Positions 11,718-25,166 of a DNA stretch of 64,000 bases are shown here, piece after piece. Numbering within the stretch: position 1 is the stretch's first letter; every line of letters begins with the position of its first letter. Below the pieces are notes generated by a model, which was given only the letters and a program-made list of their open reading frames with translations, made no database searches and was not told the origin of the DNA. The stretch is from contig OX597821.1 in NCBI GenBank assembly GCA_951406725.2, positions 52,018,001 through 52,082,000 on the forward strand, given 5' to 3'. This DNA is from Octopus vulgaris. Lineage: Eukaryota. The position numbers were made by a program, and so were the translations under genes.

Positions 11718-11841
11718 TTGATGGGGAGTGCTTTCTGCAGACATTGCAGTAAAACCGCAAATGTCACTGAAGAAAAGGGTTACGCTTTCAAACTCTTCAG
11801 CTTGAATAGTTTCACCCCGAATTAATGCCCCGGCGACAGAC
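11718..11841 (-). CDS. Receptor guanylyl cyclase exon, start of cyclase catalytic domain
   Basis: cttttcaag| acceptor (uncommon AAG) and |gtaagt donor; 124 nt; [41 protein letters not shown], containing the first metal-binding Asp (FSDI.GFT). Confidence 0.95.
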
Positions 11842-13010: not shown

Positions 13011-14058
13011 AACTGAAGGATAAAATAAAAAGGATCCTTCCCTAGAATTTTCTTCAGAGGATTCTTTTGAAATATTTTGTATATCTCTCCAAACTAATGA
13101 TGACATAAGGTCTTTGAATTTAGAACATTTTTAATGCAATTTATTCTGTTTACAACTTAAGATGTTATCTCTAGAAAAACAATATTCAGCACAAAGAGAT
13201 ATGTTCCCCCAGAAAAAACAAAAAACAAAACAAAACAATATTCACCACAAAATAGTACAGAAAGAAAACAAAAATAAAACCTCAAAAGAAAAAGAAATTT
13301 AATTATGCAACAGAATATTTGCATTCAATGTGACAAAAATTACTGATTTTTGACAGATAACAATATTAATTTGAACAATTCCAATGCTAGTATGGCGACG
13401 CTAGTTGAACTATAATAACAATAACAACACATAGATAGATACATGTATGTGCATTCTTTACCAGATAAAAAGAAGAGTGCAAAAGCTACATTGAATAACA
13501 ATAATTGGAATGTTACTTTTTGTTTTGCTAACACAATCAATAACAAACAGGTGGTAATGGGTATGAAACATCTGGCTGAGATATAAATTCACTTGGGTTG
13601 AGTTATGTGAGCTGGGAGAGTATTTTGTGTATTTCTGCCAGAGCAGTTTATCCAAAGAATGAGAGATATAAGTCACCTATATCTATATCACAAAAATGGA
13701 AGCAGTTTTCTTATAGAACAGTTGAAGATAACCTTGACTGAATTGTTGTTGATGTTAAGTCTCCCTGTCTCCTACTTCCTGCTGGTCTTCTTACCTGCCC
13801 AGCTACCTATCTATCATGTGAACTATGTGTGTGTTTCTGTTTTTATACAGAACCCTCTCCATTGAAACATTACCCTTGTGTATGTGTCTTATATATCACT
13901 GATGTGGGATACATTTAAATTTATGATGTACTTATGCAATGTATATGTCTGATAAATTGATTCAGATTTTGATACAAGGCAAACAAGTTTAGAGAGAGAT
14001 GGGGGATAATCAATTACATTGACACCAGTACTTATTGACTCTGAAAGAAGGCAAAATA

Positions 14059-14302
14059 CAGAGCAAAAGATAAATTGAAACCAGCATTCCAGCTTACATT
14101 GGTCAATTCTGAATGTTCATCTGAAAATCTGAAGATCCAAATGATAGACTGGATAAGCAGAGCGTCAGACAACAAATCAAAATAATGAAAAAGTAAATCT
14201 TATCATAGTAGTTTAATTCATATTTTATGTACATCACTGCTTAAAGTCAACCAATAGCTGTAAGTTAAGGGGCTGGACTCCAGACATTGACTACAGATCA
14301 TG
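14059..14302 (+). pseudogene. Inverted, diverged duplicate of cyclase exon 19735-19906 plus ~85 nt of its downstream intron (antisense pseudo-exon / candidate editing-complementary sequence)
   Basis: The plus strand here (ttgaaaccagcattcc...gaagatccaaatgatagac...aagtaa...gtagtttaatt...ctacagatcatg) matches the minus-strand sense sequence of 19896-19649; ~83% identity over 138 aligned positions covering the exon and its donor, with one 28-nt deletion. Confidence 0.9.
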
Positions 14303-15639
14303 ATGTGAAATATCTACCAAATATCAACAGAATTGGTATTTTCTGCAAATCAATTTGCTTCAGTGAACTTGACAATTTCATGAGATAAATAGTTTTAATA
14401 ATGACATTTCTCAACTAAAGATAATTTGGTATATATGAAAAAAAAAACAAAAAAAAAACTGGATATATTTCAGATTTCTGAAGTAAACTGTTGCAGAAAA
14501 CAAACTCTTATTAGTTGATCCCATGATATATCTTTTGTTCTTCTTAGAACTTGGAAGACCATGAGTAGTATGAAATGTTGCAAAACCATTTTAGCTATGT
14601 TATAATAACTCTGCTAGGTCACTATCTTATATGTCTGATTTACTGATGTAGAATATATGTTAGTTTATATGAAACACTTGACATGCCTCAGCTAGTTCTT
14701 CTTCTCCAGAATGTTGGTTTTCCAGAATTCTCTCCTTAGCCAAGTTATTCCTACTGTCATCAGCTTACAACTACTAAGAAAGACATTAACAACATTGTTC
14801 CCACTTGTCTCCACGAACCTGAGATGCTATGGGCACAACTCATTCCACAAAAGTGCAAATCATAACTTCTGATATAGGTACATGACTGAAGATATCTAGG
14901 CTCAGATATCTGCACATGTATGTGTGTGCATGCACATTTGCTGGGTAACACAGTCTATAGTCTTCATATGTGATGGTAAGACAACTCTTCCCACTTACTC
15001 TATTCATACTTCAACAATAACTAAACTGAATTCTGTAGAAAGATGACATCAATGAATGTGACACTCTGTCGATTACAACAATGAGGGTTCCAACTGATCC
15101 AATTAATGGAACAGCCTGCTCATGAAATTAACATGCAAGTGGCTGAGAATTCCATAGACATGTGTACCCTTAACATGATTCTAAGGGAGATTCAGCAAGA
15201 CACAGAGTGTGACAAGGCTGGTCCTTTGAAATACAGATACAACTCACTTTTGTCTGCTCAGTGGACTGGAGCAATGTAAAATAAATTATCTTGCTCAAGG
15301 ACACAACACATCACTGGGAATTGAACTGATGACCTTACGACTGTGAGCTGAACACCCTAACCACTAAGCCATGTGCTTTCACTTACAAATGATATAACAC
15401 CTCCCAAATGTTACACACATATACATACATGTATATTATATCTGTATGAGTAATTCAAACCGTGATATGAATTGTGTTGTCAATAACAGATTAATTCAGT
15501 TTTTTCTGTAATTACAGAAAAAACGGAATCCAACAAATCACTAGACTTTGATGAAATCTTAGAAAAATACTTTTTCAAACAATTTAAATAAAATAATTCA
15601 GTGGCTTTGTTTAATTCTATTGACATTATTTTTTTAAAC

Positions 15640-15872
15640 CTCATCATCGTTGTCCTCATCATCATCACCATCATCATCATTACCTTCATTGTCATCATCA
15701 TCATCATCATTGCTATCATCATTATTATCATCATTGCCATCATCATTATTATCATCATTGCCATCATCATTACCATCGCCATCATCATCATCATCATCAT
15801 CATTGCCATCGTCATCATCATCATCATCGTTGTCATCATCATCATCACCACCACTGCCACCACCATTACCAT
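15640..15872. repeat. Imperfect (CAT)n trinucleotide repeat
   Basis: Visible directly; explains the poly-M, poly-I and poly-S ORFs. Confidence 0.95.
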
Positions 15873-16175
15873 TCTTGGTTTGAGAAATATACCAAGAGTT
15901 TTTTTATTCATTTTAACAAAGGAAATATATTTTGCATTTCTATATCTCAGTGATCACATATGTCTATCTGGCTCCTGCCCATCTCTCTGTGAATCTTCAA
16001 GAAACATCTGGCTACCTGTCTCTTTGTCTCTACAGAATATAGATTATTTACAATCTATATTTATAGTCATTCTGTAACACAGTCTACTCAGATGGTCACA
16101 TACTGCCCTGAAACGAAATCTGTCAGAAGACAGCCAATCTATCCTCATGTACTGCTAGTTGAAAAACTTACTCAC

Positions 16176-16325
16176 TTTGGTAACATACTGTAAAGAAGGT
16201 CTTCTGCTCGTTTCTTCTGTTCCAGAAAGTCCCCAGTTCGCTCTTCCACTAATGCCTCTAAATTGTTGGCATATTGTTCCATACGGGACAAAAGGTTATC
16301 CAAAAGGTTTCCTTTGTCCCCGTCT
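16176..16325 (-). CDS. Receptor guanylyl cyclase exon, coiled-coil hinge / signalling helix
   Basis: atcag| acceptor and |gtgagt donor; 150 nt, phase 2-2; [49 protein letters not shown](K), matching the conserved NPR hinge motif [16 protein letters not shown]. Confidence 0.96.
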
Positions 16326-16721
16326 CTGATGATAAAAGAAAATTAATAATTTTAGTAAAGGAAAATATAAATATTTAACAATTAACTGATATATAATTAT
16401 TCTTAATATATTTCAGCAGATTATAATGCAAATATGCTAATCACTGTTGTTTATGTCACAGGAGATCATCTTCCTCTTTTGACAATGATAATGTTTTCAA
16501 GACTACTCAGCTTATTGATGAGTATTTTATGACACTGGTGTTTGACAAGTGGCTCATTTGCCAGAAGTATCCAACCCTTTGAATCTAAATGAACTGATGA
16601 TTGTTTATAACTTCAGTGACCAGACTGTTTGCTGATTAGTGTTGATGTCTGCCAACTGATAATAATAGTTTAAAATAATAATGATAATAATAATAATAAT
16701 AATGATAATAATAATAATAAT

Positions 16722-17280
16722 AAATGCCCTGATGCAGTACCAGACAATGGCTTGCATGGCTTCTGATCTTAACTGATTGGAAGTGTTATCATGTACATTG
16801 TTTTGTCTTGGTATAAAAGATGGGCTACAGCAAATATTCTGCTCAATACCACAGATTTGCTTGTCAGTTGTTTCACCTTAACCAGTTGAGCATGTCCCTT
16901 GGTGGCTGACGATATGTGCATATCTGATCATGAGCAGAGGTAATGGGGAGCATCATAGCCGTGTGTTGAAAGGAATTCTAAGAGGTTTTGATAATTCAAC
17001 TTTGGAAACATGGGTGGTTCGTCCAACATCCTTAAACAATCCTTATTCAGGGACCTTTTGAGTGGGATGGGCTACTTGACCAGAAGAAAATTCTAACTGG
17101 GCCCCACCTGCAAGGTCATGAGCTGTTTATCTTGATATGAGATCCCCATGTTGCGCACATATGGTTGTGATGCATGTGCCTAGTGTATCCTTATCAGATG
17201 GATAGTCATGATGGGTATACTGGGCTTCGTATATTTTACCCCAGTGTCACTATGATGGCATGCACTGCTCTCTCACTCAA
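16722..17280. repeat. Unclassified ~560-bp interspersed repeat bounded by (TAA)n
   Basis: aaatgccctgatgcagtacc...gcactgctctctcactca; two further tandem copies at 27216-27764 and 27778-28345. Confidence 0.85.
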
Positions 17281-17828
17281 TAATAATAATAATAATAATA
17301 ATAATAACCCTTTCTGCTATAGGCACAAGGCCTGAAATTTGGAAGAGGTTGGGTTAAGTTAATTACATTAACCCCAATACTCAACTGGTACATTGACCCC
17401 CAAAAGGTTGAAAGGCAAAGTTGACCTCAGCTGAATTTGAACTCAGAACGTAAAGATGGATAAAATGCTGCTAAACATTTTGCCTGGTGCCTTAATGATT
17501 CTGCCAGCTAATAATAGTAATAATAATATTTAATACAAACACATAATTTTCTTATGGTTTCTTAAACATTCTCTAGAACAACACTATGTAAAAAACCAAA
17601 TATATGGCACCGTAGGCATAACACCAACATGAACTTCTAACTTGTTGTCTCTGGGTGAGACTTGGAGCCAACTTGTACAAATGTAAAGCAAAAGTCAAAC
17701 ATATAATAATAATAATAATAATAATTTCAGATCTCACTGTTCCCTGTGCAAATAACAGTTTATTATGATACTTATTCATTTAATGCAAACCCATGGAATA
17801 CAACTTAGAACTTTTATCGTTTTATTGA

Positions 17829-17868
<40 letters not shown>

Positions 17869-17879
17869 TAATAATAATA

Positions 17880-18965
17880 ATGAAATTATTGTATACAGTG
17901 CTCAGGTGCACCACAACTTGTCAAAGTGCGTATAAAGCATATGCAGTAATGTACAAATGTCTGGGAAGTGAACAGTATATGAGTCAGATACATGCTTGCG
18001 TGTGTATGGAGGGGAGAAAATCAGGTGTAGTGTTGGCAAATCTCAGGAAGCATGGAAGTTTTGAAGGATGCAGTGCTCTGACAACTAACAACTGATGCCG
18101 GCAGTTTGTTCTATGCTTCAGCAACTCTCAGCGTGAAAAAAGTCATGGAAGCTGTGCTGTTTTCTGACTTTCTAGACATGTCTATGGGTGTTAGACAGGT
18201 GGAGTTTGAAAAGGTGCTCAGAGTTATTGTTAGCAAGATGGTCAATAATTTTAATGGGTGGCTGCCAAGCCAGCTGCCAGACGTCGGAGTTTCAATGTAT
18301 CCATGCCCAGGGAAGTAAGGCATTCAGAATATGGCAAATGCCTGACTGAAGGTATTCTCTTGGTTGCACGCCGCTGAACGGCTTCCAGACGATTAATATC
18401 CTGGGCAAGATAGGGGTTCCAGACCGGTGATGCAAATTGCAGGTGAGGTTGCACCATAGCTATATAAAGCCGCAGATAGATAGCCGGAGAGCGGCTCACA
18501 AAGGACTTGGTGAGTGATGCCAAGACACCCTCAGCCTTCTTAGCAATGTGTTTTGACCAATGCAAATCGCTGTCAAAAATGATGCCCAGGTCACGTTCAC
18601 AAGAAGACTTTTTGAGATTAGTGTTGTGGAGGGAGTAAGTAGACACTGGGTTTTTCCTCCCAAAATGCATGGTGGTACATTTGTCCACAGCCAGCTTGAG
18701 TTGCCAGTCCATGATCCACCGCTGCATTGTGTTCAGGTCTGATTGCAATAAAGAGCTATAGTGTACAGGATCTGTCTTCTTTATTTCGAGGTACAGCTTG
18801 ATGTCATCTGCATATTTCAGCACTGTGGCATTCTTTAAGTTGGCATCTATGTCATTAACATATGCAACAAATAAAAGGGGGCCAAGAACAGATCCCTGTG
18901 GTACACTAGATGCCATCTCATTGGGTGAAGAGTTGTTGTCCTAGAACTGTGACAACCTCTTTGTT
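17880..18965 (-). mobile_element. 5'-truncated CR1/L2-group LINE (reverse transcriptase) with (ATT)n tail
   Basis: ORF 18251-18916 has VPQGSVLGPLLF, YADDIKLY, ERDLG, WNPY and LEAVQRRATK motifs; the 3' end runs into (ATT)n at 17831-17880. Confidence 0.9.
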
Positions 18966-18969
18966 ACTT

Positions 18970-19260
18970 CAATAATAATGTGTATGAAGTTGAACGTGAG
19001 TCTTGAGTACTGAATTTGCAAACTCCTTATCTATGGTCCATAGATGTCCTCTTTCTCTTGTATTTTGCTAACCATGTTCATGTTTTGGGAGGGCAGCTGA
19101 TTTCCACAATGGAATATACCTTTTCTTTGTGGTCCTACACAACAATATCTGGCCAGTTGTGTTTCAACTTGGTGGCTGTTTTAATTTTCTAGTTCTACCA
19201 ATATTCTTTTGACCCACAGGTTTTAATATGGTCAGCTTGATCTGTTTGGATTCCCCTTTG
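18970..19260 (-). mobile_element. RLE endonuclease-domain fragment
   Basis: Minus-strand KTATKLKHNWPDIVV*DHKEKVYSIVEISCP, related to 60190-60300. Confidence 0.65.
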
Positions 19261-19734
19261 TATGTGTGTATGTGTGTGTGTGTATGTACATGTGTATGTA
19301 TGTATGTATGTATGTATGTATGTATGTATGTATGTATGTATGTATGTGTCTATGTACTCCAAGGTAGCTATCTGTTATATTGCAATACTACACAGTGGTT
19401 GTGTGAGCTACGAAATCCTCGTCGCCACTGTTATGTTGCACGTTCGGATGACCTCTAATCAACTCAACTCCTCGATGTCTAGACCTCTCCCTCTATATCT
19501 ACATATTGGGCTAGCCTACATCATCGTCTGAGGGTGTCCCCACAACACTATCAAAATATTCTTTTCAAACAGCAATGGTATTGTAGTATTGTGATCGTTT
19601 AACCTGCAACTTAACACTTATTGACTAAAATTGAACTTCTTAAGAGCCCATGATCTGTAGTCTAGCACCTTAAATCATAGCTATGAGTAAGAAGTCTTGT
19701 GCATAAGATATAAATTAAACTACATAAATCTTAC

Positions 19735-19906
19735 TTGTTCATTTTCTTGATATGTTGTTTGATGCTCTGCATATCTGGTCTATCATTTGGATCTTCAGAC
19801 CAGCATTTCTTTATCAAGTTAACGAGATCCTCAGATGGACATTCGGAATAGTCCAATGTTGGTCGGAATGCTGGTTTCAATCCATCTTTTACTTTTTGGT
19901 AAATTT
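19735..19906 (-). CDS. Receptor guanylyl cyclase exon, end of kinase-homology domain (subdomains X-XI)
   Basis: Branch-point-like TGACTAAC at 19928-19935, cttcctttcag| acceptor, |gtaag donor; 172 nt; (E)IYQKVKDGLKPAFRPTLDYSECPSEDLVNLIKKCWSEDPNDRPDMQSIKQHIKKMN(K). Not in the supplied ORF track. Confidence 0.93.
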
Positions 19907-21104
19907 CTGAAAGGAAGAAGTTTCACAGTTAGTCAGTCAACTGTAATGTTACTACAGCCATATGCCATCATCAATATCTATAAAGATGAAATGCGAAAAA
20001 GTTGTTTGATTTCTTGGTTATTTGTCTCATTTTGGGATGGGGTCGAATTGGTGCCAAAATTTACACTGGGGGTAAAATGGGGTGGGCAATGGTGTGAGGA
20101 GGGTTGCAAGTTGCTTGGGGCTACCGTTTGGTTGCCATGGTGAGGAATATGGGAAAAATTGAGTTTTATGGGATAGAGAGATTGCACTGTTTGAATAACG
20201 GTGGCTTTTGTGTTGCTGCAGGGGCTAGAGGCGGTTATCTTTAATTGTGGGTGTAAAAATTTGTTGGATTTTGGAAAGTGGGGTAAAGAAGAGGGCAATA
20301 AAAAGAACCAGGGAAAGAAGATGAACAAAAGAAGAAAGCACGGGTCAAAATAGCTAGTCAGAATATACATAATAATCAGTCAACTGTAACTATGGGCATA
20401 AATATGTTGTCACTAGAAAATACTCCAGTTAGTCAGTGAACTGTAACATTAGAACAGTGATTCTTAACTGGGGTCCATAATGCCCCTGAGGGTCTGTATA
20501 AGGTTTTTAGGGGTCCACATAAGAAAATAGTAAATTGGGAGTCTACAAAAAATTTTGCATTAGATGTATGTAATTGGTATGTATTGGTGGTGGTGGTGGG
20601 GTAAGTCAATGGCATTGATTCCAAAAGGATAAAAGGCAAAGTTGACCGTGGCAGAATTTGAACTCTGAACATAAAGACAGATGAAATACCACTAAGCATT
20701 TTGCCTTGCATACCAATGATTCTATCAGATTGCTGCGATAATAATTAAAATGTTATTAGTTTCAAATTTTGGCACAAAGCCAGCAATTTGGGGGTAGGGT
20801 GTAAGTCAATTACATCAACCCTGGTCCTTAACCTGTACTCATTTTATTGACCCTGAAAGGATGAAAGGTTAAGTTGACCTTGGTGGAATTTGAACTTAGA
20901 ACATAAAGATGGACAAAATGCTCTTCAGCATTTTGCCCAGCATGCTAACAATTCTGCCAGCTTTCTAAATATTGGTTTCAAATTTTGGCACAAGGCCAGC
21001 AAGTTTAGTGGAGTGACTAAGTTGATTATATCGACCCCAGTGCTGAACATAATTTATTGACTGTGAAAGAATGAAAGGCAAAGTTGAAAGGATGAAAGGC
21101 AAAG

Positions 21105-22760: not shown

Positions 22761-24664
22761 CCAACTGTAACTAGTTTATCATAATTTTTAAGACTCTGCA
22801 GTAAGATGGTAGTGCAGAAGTGTAGTACTGTGGTAGCGGTGCTGTTGTGTGGTAGTGACCCACTGGTGCGGTAGAATCATCGTCACTAAGTTATGTAGTG
22901 TGGGAGAGTCATAGTAAAACATTACCAAGGATACACTACGATGTGGTATCTATCCATACCATACACCATATTGGGAGTTAATACTGATATCAAATTTTGG
23001 CAAAGTCCACCTCGGTGGGATCTGAACTCAGAGCACAAAGACGGATGAAATGCTGCTTAACATTTTGCCCGGCCTGCTAACGATTTTGCCAGCTCACCGC
23101 CTTCTAAATAACAAGCGATGTTAATTCCAGTAAGACGGTGAGATGGCAGAATCGTTACCACGCCGGGCATAAATGCTCACCGGCATCTCGTCCGTCTTTA
23201 TGTTCTGAGTTCAAATTCCACCGAGGTTGACTTTGACTTTGCATTCCATCCTTTCAGAGTCGAACATTGGGGTCGATGTACTAACTTACCAGCTCCCCTA
23301 AAATTGCTGGCCTTGTGTCAAAATCAGAAACCAATATTAATGTTATTCAAATCTGCAATATCTAACGTGCAAATCTACATTATCTATGATATGGCAACGC
23401 TAATGCCCCATCTTTAAAATCCCGATGTCATTTCCGTAGCTGTCATTGCTTCGCTAATGATCAGAGAGTCACGATTGACACCACCCGAGACACTTTCACT
23501 TTGTACTCTCGTACGCGGAAAAGCCGCTGAAGTGGCGGTATTTCGTTTCTGCAGAAAAGTGTAATAAAGCAGCCACAGTAACAACAACAATTATACTTGA
23601 GTGCTAAGATTCATCATCCACATTGCAGGAGACACTCGCACCTTTGCAGTAAAACTTTAGGGCAGAGTTGGGTGTACGTATTTCCCAGTATTACAATTTT
23701 TCCCTCTAAAGAAGATAGTTTCATTGATCAGATCGACTCAAGACGAATTGTACGTCCTCCCAGCTGTAGGAAATACAGTGGTTAACAAACCTCATTTCCT
23801 GATTGCTCTGATAGAATAGCAAGTTCAGTTGTCGACGATCTGATCATATGATACACACATGAACATTCATACATGAACATGCATACGCACGCTTGCACAG
23901 ACGCATGCACAGACGCACACAAACATACTTGCATACATGGGAAGCCCCTCTGTTGTCACAACATCTTATTTCTTTACTGACCACAAGGGGCTACACACAG
24001 AAGGGACAAACAAGGACACACAAACGGATTAAGTCGATTATATCGACCCCAGTGCGTAACTGGTACTTATTTAATCGACCCCGAAAGGATGAAAGGCAAA
24101 GTCGACCTCGGCGGAATTTGAACTCAGAGCATAAAGACAGACGAAATACATATTTTTTTTACTACCCACAAAAGGCTAAACACAGAGAGGACAAACAAGG
24201 ACAGACAAACGAATTAAGTCGATTATATTGACCCCAGTGCGTAACTGGTAACAGACGAAATACCGCTAAGCATTTCGCCCGGCGTGCTAACGTTTCTGCC
24301 AGTTCGCCGCCTTCTGTTGTCACAACATCTCTCTAGAAGAGGGAAATTGAGTGGCACCCTGCGGTAAAAAGTAAGACCCATCACAAAAATGGCTGGTTGT
24401 AGTCCTCTCATTTGTGGGACTTTCGATCAGGCGATGGCAATATTCGAACACGAGTTTGCAGTTATCATGTATGTATGTATGTATGTATGTATGTATGTAT
24501 GTATGTATGTATGTATGTGGTGTATGTATGTGGTATATGTATGTGGTGTGTGTGTGTGTATGTATGTATGTATGTATGTATGTATGTATGTACACACGCT
24601 GTCCTTCTCCATACGCTCTATGGTGCAACACTTTCACAGTTTACAAATATACGTAAGATAACAC

Positions 24665-24946
24665 AAATACAGTGTAATACCAGACTTCCTGTAGGCAAAA
24701 TCGTGTCCTTTCCATTAATATATTCTTAACTTTTAAGATACTATTCAATTTCTATTTTTATTCGCGTATATATTATGTTCCTTACCTCTTCCCCGTCCCA
24801 CAACACCATTACAATGCAGTACCAGTCTTTCTGTAGGCAAAATCGTGTCCTTTCTATTAATATATTCTTAACTTTTTAGGCACTATTCAATTTCTATTTT
24901 TATTCGCGTATATATTATGTTCCTTACCACTTCTCCGTCCCACAAC
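24665..24946. repeat. Intronic tandem duplication, period ~143 bp
   Basis: ctgtaggcaaaatcgtgtccttt...ttccttacc.ct...ccgtcccacaac occurs at 24689-24804 and 24831-24945. Confidence 0.9.
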
Positions 24947-25010: not shown

Positions 25011-25166
25011 CTTGAGCGCTTAAATCCACGCCATTGAGATAGAAGACTCCGTTCCGATAGATTATCTCTTGACACATAATAGAGAAGCTGTAAACGTCAC
25101 TTTTCTGTGATCCTCCTTCCGGCGGATTATGGAGACGAAGCAATTCGGGCGAAGTCCAGAGCTTAC
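25011..25166 (-). CDS. Receptor guanylyl cyclase exon, kinase-homology domain (subdomains VIII-IX)
   Basis: ttttag| acceptor and G|gtgaac donor; 156 nt, phase 1-1; (R)[51 protein letters not shown]. Confidence 0.93.

What the first reader, a model, noticed from the sequence alone, without database searches (positions are those of the whole stretch)
14059..19906. Inverted copy of a coding exon inside the same gene: candidate ADAR editing guide (ECS) and splicing loop
Seen: 14059-14302 is an antisense copy of exon 19735-19906, its 5' splice site and ~85 nt of following intron (source 19896-19649). I count 24 differences in 138 aligned positions (exon plus donor), and a 28-nt deletion between tct microhomologies. 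In the pre-mRNA duplex, 7 differences would be G-U wobbles and 5 would place an exonic A opposite C. Known: ADAR favours A-C mismatches, intronic ECS elements direct recoding (e.g. GRIA2 Q/R), and coleoids recode heavily. Inference: editing at 19894 (AAA>AGA, K>R), 19763 (ATC>GTC, I>V) and 19759 (K>R) would recode the pseudokinase C-lobe; the two other A-C sites are synonymous. The ~5.3-kb loop contains the 150-nt phase 2-2 hinge exon, so pairing could also mask the donor or promote in-frame skipping or circularisation of the dimerisation helix. This would be an editing/splicing guide born by local inverted exon duplication rather than from a TE. The mismatch classes are also what neutral transitions would produce.
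Basis: partly seen in the sequence, partly recalled or inferred. Interest (0 to 1): 0.85.

Follow-up and report, generated by a model that had tools for sequence, protein, structure and literature searches.

The report
Decayed inverted exon copy in intron
An octopus hormone-receptor gene carries an old, decayed, back-to-front copy of one of its exons in a nearby intron; the two are predicted to be able to pair as RNA, but the main transcripts in the RNA data checked are unchanged, so it is likely a harmless duplication relic rather than an RNA-editing guide.

Summary
Window 14059-14302 is a single-copy inverted duplicate of exon 19735-19906 plus 86 nt of intron in an octopus ANP-receptor-like guanylyl cyclase gene. 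It differs at 24 of 134 exon columns, 7 giving wobbles and 5 giving A:C, and has a 28-nt deletion. A duplex is predicted (-227 kcal/mol against -77±7 for shuffles).

The guide reading has no positive support. Pair-keeping and pair-breaking transitions are equal, 12 and 12. Site 19894 lies outside the predicted helix. In 4 of 4 RNA-like runs one spliced contig covers the exon with no changed letter, and it joins the hinge exon in the 2 runs whose junction is listed. Contigs hide minority editing, tissues are unknown, and other species' introns could not be read, so low-level neural editing remains open.

Best reading: a neutral relic of a local inverted duplication between two truncated mobile elements, with at most incidental editing. 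It is uncommon: 1 of 30 exons over 764 kb. The scan noted a similar case in an insect gene (e1-7594545, not checked here).

The parts
14059..14192 (+). Exon-derived part of the inverted copy (antisense in the minus-strand pre-mRNA); matches 19896-19825 and 19796-19735; frameshifted by a 28-nt deletion
   Evidence: 24 differences in 134 columns
14193..14302 (+). Intron-derived part of the copy: decayed donor plus intron matching 19734-19649, with three insertions
   Evidence: 16 differences in 86 columns
19735..19906 (-). Source coding exon, 172 nt, end of the kinase-homology (pseudokinase) domain of an ANP-receptor-1-like membrane guanylyl cyclase (aa 755-810 of P0006)
   Evidence: covered by spliced contigs with 0 other letters in 4 of 4 runs
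19649..19734 (-). Source 5' splice site and first 86 nt of the following intron
16176..16325 (-). 150-nt phase 2-2 hinge/dimerisation exon lying between the two arms
   Evidence: joined to exon 19735 in the loose ends listed for X3 and X14
13954..14056 (+). Fragment of a dispersed SINE-like repeat that abuts the left end of the copy and stops short of the part other copies carry
   Evidence: (family D19); the label SINE is recalled
14298..14435 (+). Member of a dispersed repeat of about 230 nt that abuts the right end of the copy and lacks the roughly 40 left-end bases most relatives carry; junction at a shared CATG
   Evidence: (40 scored of 634 candidates); the MITE-like label is my inference from terminal motifs
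25011..25166 (-). Upstream exon of the same gene
   Evidence: joined to 19906 in X3 and X14
11718..11841 (-). Downstream exon (start of the cyclase domain); the copy lies in the intron between 16176 and this exon

Best explanation
Window 14059-14302 is a decayed inverted duplicate of one coding exon and its donor-side intron flank, lying 5.3 kb downstream in the same guanylyl cyclase gene; it likely arose once as a templated insertion between two mobile-element remnants and has likely drifted neutrally since. Shown: the copy, its single-copy status, the frameshift, the unbiased substitution pattern, and an unedited majority mRNA in four runs. Predicted: in the nascent pre-mRNA the two arms can form an interrupted duplex of about 200 bp (about 115 of 172 exon bases paired). 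Inferred: when it forms, ADAR would treat it like any diverged inverted repeat and edit a few of the 56 exon adenosines in the aligned blocks at low frequency, mostly in neural tissue, with no selected target and little effect on splicing.
For: Over 220 columns there are 12 wobble-making transitions, 12 A:C or C:A-making transitions and 16 transversions; G>A 8/38 against C>T 6/38 (p=0.77) and A>G 6/85 against T>C 4/59 (p=1.0). Differences fall on codon positions 5:10:9, so the copy shows no coding constraint. A model with both arms drifting at one rate is not rejected (p=0.13). In X3, X8, X14 and X6 (4 studies) a single contig of 2.55-2.59 kb covers 19735-19908 with 0 other letters and 0 gaps, and its depth (83, 32, 270, 21) equals the total depth over the exon. 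All 16 sampled words of the unedited exon are held by 20 of the 24 runs listed, from 9 studies. Both flanks are truncated dispersed repeats. The 764 kb examined holds 81 inverted matches of 200 nt or more within 10 kb, and several repeat pairs in the window are predicted to be more stable, down to -945 kcal/mol. The proposed recodings are mild: R occurs in 10 of 90 and 15 of 90 homologs at the two K sites, and the I site holds L/I/M/V. In human Alu pairs editing falls with distance and divergence (PMC526178, passages).
Against: The predicted duplex is strong and survives competition with local folding (about -104 kcal/mol net). Octopus edits heavily, and edited sites favour A:C mismatches (PMC8891338, passages). 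The RNA test sees only the majority letter, in tissues that are not on record. The intron arm has diverged somewhat less than two drifting arms predict (14 against 18 expected of 80; not significant). Such copies are uncommon: 1 of 30 exons, and 2 of the 3 background inverted pairs tested were dispersed repeats, only 1 a true local duplication. With 24 transitions the bias test detects only a strong skew.
Confidence: 0.68

Rival explanations
1. The copy works as an editing-complementary sequence: the duplex forms often enough in neurons to give substantial (10% or more) recoding at 19763 (I>V), 19759 (K>R) or other paired adenosines, whether or not this is selected.
For: Predicted duplex of -227 kcal/mol against -77±7 for 60 shuffles. 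19763 and 19759 sit as 1x1 A:C mismatches between short helices. Once intron 16326-19734 is spliced the arms are about 2.0 kb apart (arithmetic from coordinates). Neural coding edits in squid are common and 70% recoding (PMC9068888, passages). An unnamed Logan-derived relative, P0008, has V at the I site, which may be genomic or edited.
Against: No changed letter in 4 of 4 majority contigs. No enrichment of A:C or wobble changes. 19894 lies outside the helix. Neighbour contexts of 19763 (CAT) and 19863 (GAC) are poor for ADAR by recalled preferences (contexts). The copy carries a 28-nt deletion and three insertions, unlike the conserved guides I recall.
Confidence: 0.2
2. The duplex regulates splicing: it masks the donor at 19734 or promotes in-frame skipping or circularisation of the 150-nt hinge exon, giving a receptor without its dimerisation helix.
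For: Donor bases 19734-19730 are paired with probability 0.89-1.0 in the two-strand model. The hinge exon is phase 2-2 and lies between the arms.
Against: Listed junctions in X3 and X14 are canonical, and the 3' lengths of all 4 contigs (825-864 nt) fit the 811 nt of coding sequence with the hinge included. The 3.4-kb intron is complete about 2 kb before the copy is transcribed. Skipping the hinge needs the same donor that the duplex would hide. Circular RNAs are reported at low levels in octopus (PMC9699675, passages).
Confidence: 0.05
3. The copy is the last remnant of a larger inverted partial gene duplicate, or of a copy made from a partly spliced RNA, in a cluster of related cyclase genes; it never was a small local insertion.
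For: A convergent paralog lies on the + strand, ending about 45 kb from the host's last exon. The copy begins within about 10 nt of the exon's 5' end and keeps no upstream intron.
Against: No decayed copy of any other of the 30 exons was found in 764 kb. The copy shares the host's intron, not the paralog's, and carries no upstream-exon sequence that I could align by eye.
Confidence: 0.07

Closest known systems
Inverted duplicated sequences in pre-mRNA (Barak et al. 2020, PMC7006430) and inverted Alu pairs (Athanasiadis et al. 2004, PMC526178)
   Same: Two diverged, oppositely oriented copies in one pre-mRNA that are predicted to pair; such pairs are common in pre-mRNA and mostly edited at low levels.
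   Different: Here the arms are unique sequence, not a mobile element, and one arm is a coding exon with its donor, so any editing could recode.
Intronic editing-complementary sequences (GRIA2 Q/R type, recalled; insect nAChR alpha6, PMC1919356)
   Same: A downstream intronic stretch complementary to an exon.
   Different: Known guides direct shown editing and are conserved. Here no editing was seen in majority contigs, substitutions show no pairing bias, and conservation is untested. The PMC1919356 passages read mention ECS but not an origin by inverted duplication.
Lymnaea antiNOS-2 (PMC3537157)
   Same: Molluscan antisense sequence made from a duplicated piece of a signalling gene by DNA inversion.
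   Different: antiNOS-2 is a separately transcribed pseudogene acting in trans; this copy is intronic, would act in cis, and has no known transcript of its own.
Scan finding e1-7594545 (insect nAChR gene, inverted exon copy in an intron)
   Same: Same kind of arrangement, noted before by this scan on other DNA.
   Different: That note reports a conserved stretch beside known edited sites; neither is shown here. It is an unchecked AI note.

Membership tests
Editing-complementary sequence (ECS) | Intronic sequence of the same pre-mRNA able to base-pair with the exon | tested here: met
   (predicted only)
Editing-complementary sequence (ECS) | A-to-I editing at paired exon adenosines | tested here: inconclusive
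   0 changed letters in majority contigs of 4 of 4 runs; contigs drop minority variants and tissues are not on record
Editing-complementary sequence (ECS) | Substitutions that keep pairing (wobble or compensatory excess) | tested here: not met
   12 pair-keeping against 12 pair-breaking transitions and 16 transversions in 220 columns; low power
Editing-complementary sequence (ECS) | Conservation across species above intron background | not testable with these tools
   no related genome is held for G000; only proteins of other cephalopods were available
Editing-complementary sequence (ECS) | Editing lost when the element is deleted | not testable with these tools
   needs a minigene
Transposon-derived inverted repeat pair | Both arms belong to a dispersed repeat family | tested here: not met
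   source has 3 genome matches only; dispersed repeats flank the copy but are not part of it
Pre-mRNA inverted duplicated sequence | Over 40 bp of reverse-complement similarity within one pre-mRNA | tested here: met
   220 aligned columns at 82%; definition from PMC7006430
Splicing loop / circRNA-promoting complementary flanks | Skipped or circular product of the enclosed exon | tested here: inconclusive
   only canonical junctions listed (X3, X14); the loose-end table was cut and the hinge exon was outside the stretch laid
Alternative duplicated exon | Same orientation, intact frame and splice sites | tested here: not met
   inverted, 28-nt frameshift, decayed donor, no acceptor

The most novel reading that the evidence does not exclude
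An editing guide born in one step by inverted duplication of the exon it targets, now recoding the pseudokinase domain of an octopus guanylyl cyclase in neurons and kept by selection; one of perhaps tens to a couple of hundred such exon-derived guides in this genome (rough scaling), which would be a way for new recoding sites to arise in coleoids.
Probability: 0.08. Interest if true: 0.75.

Novelty: new member of a known kind. Interest (0 to 1): 0.27.

Why it matters
How new recoding sites arise in coleoids is open, and published structure work on them largely ignores introns (PMC8891338 says so). A young exon-derived inverted copy is a natural test: if the exon is edited more than its neighbours, inverted duplication makes editing guides in one step. 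On present evidence it is more likely an inert relic. It also carries a practical warning: intronic or genomic reads from the copy that are mis-mapped to the exon would give false A>G calls at the five predicted sites.

Tried and rejected
No RNA holder is on record as RNA and no raw-read run was listed, so editing levels could not be measured; the contigs laid are taken as mRNA because they join exon to exon. No contig from the copy and none from intron 19560-19734 was laid at 80% likeness; that blank is no evidence.

Published editing tables could not be reached. Liscovitch-Brauer 2017 is not held. The spreadsheets of PMC9068888 and PMC6881472 are too large. PMC7703385 lists one PDF, not opened. 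Searches for the gene in the supplements of PMC8382921, PMC9699675 (file 2 not searched) and PMC4384741 gave 0 hits; I did not show that these files hold site lists, so the blanks say nothing. The unseen tables may settle whether this exon is edited.

My idea that unique-sequence inverted duplications are commonplace was weakened: 2 of 3 background pairs tested, out of 6, were dispersed repeats. Origin from the neighbouring paralog was rejected. An assembly artefact was rejected at 18% divergence. Origin from an edited RNA was rejected because A>G is not in excess. Earlier scan notes by place and by sequence returned nothing.
Full report
Host gene. The window holds six exons of a minus-strand membrane guanylyl cyclase. 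The source exon's 56-aa peptide is identical to proteins named atrial natriuretic peptide receptor 1(-like) from Octopus vulgaris and O. sinensis, 96% identical to O. bimaculoides and 73% to a cuttlefish. P0006 has ANF_receptor, kinase and cyclase Pfam domains; the source exon is aa 755-810, the end of the kinase-homology domain. That domain reads HGN where active kinases have HRD, consistent with a pseudokinase (the rule is recalled). The gene spans about 0.9 Mb of G000:C8.

Observation. The copy is there as described: 24 differences in 134 exon columns, 7 wobble-type, 5 exonic A:C, a 28-nt deletion between TCT repeats, and 86 columns of intron with 16 differences and three insertions. A genome search gives 3 matches: the source, the copy and a 68% paralog exon. 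The copy follows the host, including its intron, and not the paralog.

Origin and age. The left flank is a fragment of a dispersed SINE-like repeat. The right flank, from 14298, belongs to a repeat family with many genomic matches (40 scored of 634 candidates) and lacks the left end that most relatives carry, with a CATG shared at the junction. Two truncated elements with short shared words at the joins fit a templated insertion at a break. This is an inference; later deletions would look the same. Corrected divergence is about 0.21 per site. The copy has a Q codon where O. bimaculoides has Q and the host has H, a hint from one site that it predates that change in the host.

Can it pair? RNAduplex gives -227 kcal/mol against -77±7 for 60 dinucleotide shuffles. 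With flanks and local folding allowed, the net gain is about -104 kcal/mol, about 115 of 172 exon bases pair with the copy, and the donor's first five bases are paired. This two-strand model ignores the 5.3-kb loop and co-transcriptional splicing, so it shows possibility only. Position 19894 falls outside the helix. The exon has 56 adenosines in the aligned blocks, 36 of them non-synonymous if edited, so a real duplex of this length would not single out the three named sites.

Is it shaped by selection for pairing? Not detectably. Over 220 columns there are 12 wobble-making transitions, 12 mismatch-making transitions and 16 transversions, and the strand-symmetric comparisons give p=0.77 and p=1.0. 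Codon positions are hit 5:10:9. The intron arm is a little less diverged than two drifting arms predict (14 against 18 of 80, p=0.13); gap placement and donor-side constraint could explain that. These tests have little power with 24 transitions.

RNA evidence. Twenty of the 24 runs listed hold all 16 sampled words of the unedited exon. I laid 4 of those 20, from 4 studies, on 19380-20440 at 80% likeness. In each, one contig of 2.55-2.59 kb covers 19735-19908 with 0 other letters and 0 gaps, and it accounts for all depth over the exon. Loose ends listed for X3 and X14 continue into the hinge exon and the upstream exon. So the majority transcript is unedited in 4 of 4 runs and canonically spliced in at least 2 of 4. 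Contigs drop minority variants and no tissue is on record, so editing below roughly half, or in an unsampled neural tissue, is untested. Published levels are mostly under 10% (PMC8891338), which is the range this test misses.

Would recoding matter? Among 90 of 91 homologs that aligned (paralogs and near-duplicates included), the K at 19894 is K 46, N 24, R 10; the I at 19763 is L 80, I 6, M 3, V 1; the K at 19759 is K 75, R 15. The proposed changes are conservative.

Background. In 764 kb around the window, 30 exons (20 host, 10 paralog) were searched and only this one has a local copy. Pairs that look two-copy within that region and lie under 20 kb apart number 7 inverted (including this one) and 17 direct. 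Of the 6 other inverted pairs I tested 3 against the genome: 2 are dispersed repeats and 1 is a true local duplication. Scaling 1 to 6 events per 764 kb gives about 30 to 200 exon-overlapping inverted copies genome-wide by chance, a rough figure. Inverted matches of any kind are dense, 81 of 200 nt or more within 10 kb. The arrangement is therefore uncommon per exon but expected somewhere in a 2.8-Gb genome, and potential dsRNA is routine in this pre-mRNA.

Literature, with what I saw. PMC7006430: first of five parts of the text; inverted duplicates are tolerated in pre-mRNA and Alu editing is mostly under 1% per site. PMC526178: passages; editing falls with distance and divergence to a plateau near 1%. 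PMC9068888, PMC8891338, PMC9699675, PMC1919356 and PMC3537157: passages. PMC4053975: abstract. PMC8382921 and PMC4384741: listing and supplement search only. PMC7703385 and PMC6881472: supplement lists only. GRIA2 details and ADAR neighbour preferences are recalled. Four searches for an editing guide born by inverted exon duplication returned 0, 0, 18 and 8 papers; none of the titles or abstract openings describes one, and I opened only two of them. That is weak evidence of absence from print.

Verdict. A real, old, single-copy inverted exon relic that could pair with its source. Likely neutral with at most incidental editing (0.68); a working guide with substantial neural recoding 0.2, of which selected about 0.08; splicing regulator 0.05. 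Worth one cheap read-level check, not more at present.

Noticed in passing
G000:C12:28.43-28.61 Mb; also C18:66.71 Mb and C4:58.52 Mb: A tandem cluster of about ten intronless receptor-guanylyl-cyclase-like reading frames, several in open frames of 1682-1759 aa, some with a stop inside; possibly a retrogene expansion.
   Followed up: no
G000:C8:51.82-51.93 Mb (L021-L032): A paralogous guanylyl cyclase on the + strand converges on the host gene, ending about 45 kb from its last exon; further receptor-domain first exons lie at C8:50.68-55.12 Mb, suggesting a gene cluster.
   Followed up: partly
window 23001-23235: A 235-nt near-palindrome of two inverted repeat halves in the intron upstream of the source exon, predicted hairpin -155 kcal/mol; a closer-range dsRNA than the exon copy.
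   Followed up: no
P0008 (unnamed Logan-derived protein): Has V at the position where editing at 19763 would give I>V; genomic or edited state unknown.
   Followed up: no
mRNA contigs: All four contigs end 1548-1550 nt upstream of the exon, near aa 237, close to where the first exon match ends (aa 239); a shared branch point such as an alternative first exon or splice.
   Followed up: no
G000:C8:52229519-52229881 (L055): A true unique-sequence inverted duplication, 134 nt at 87%, 96 nt apart, in an intron of the same gene.
   Followed up: partly
window 24660-24946: Two tandem copies of a 142-nt unit (91%) just downstream of exon 25011-25166.
   Followed up: no
G000:C8:52432274-52449864: A 4.2-kb direct duplication at 96.6% identity inside an intron of the host gene; a recent duplication or an assembly duplicate.
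   Followed up: no
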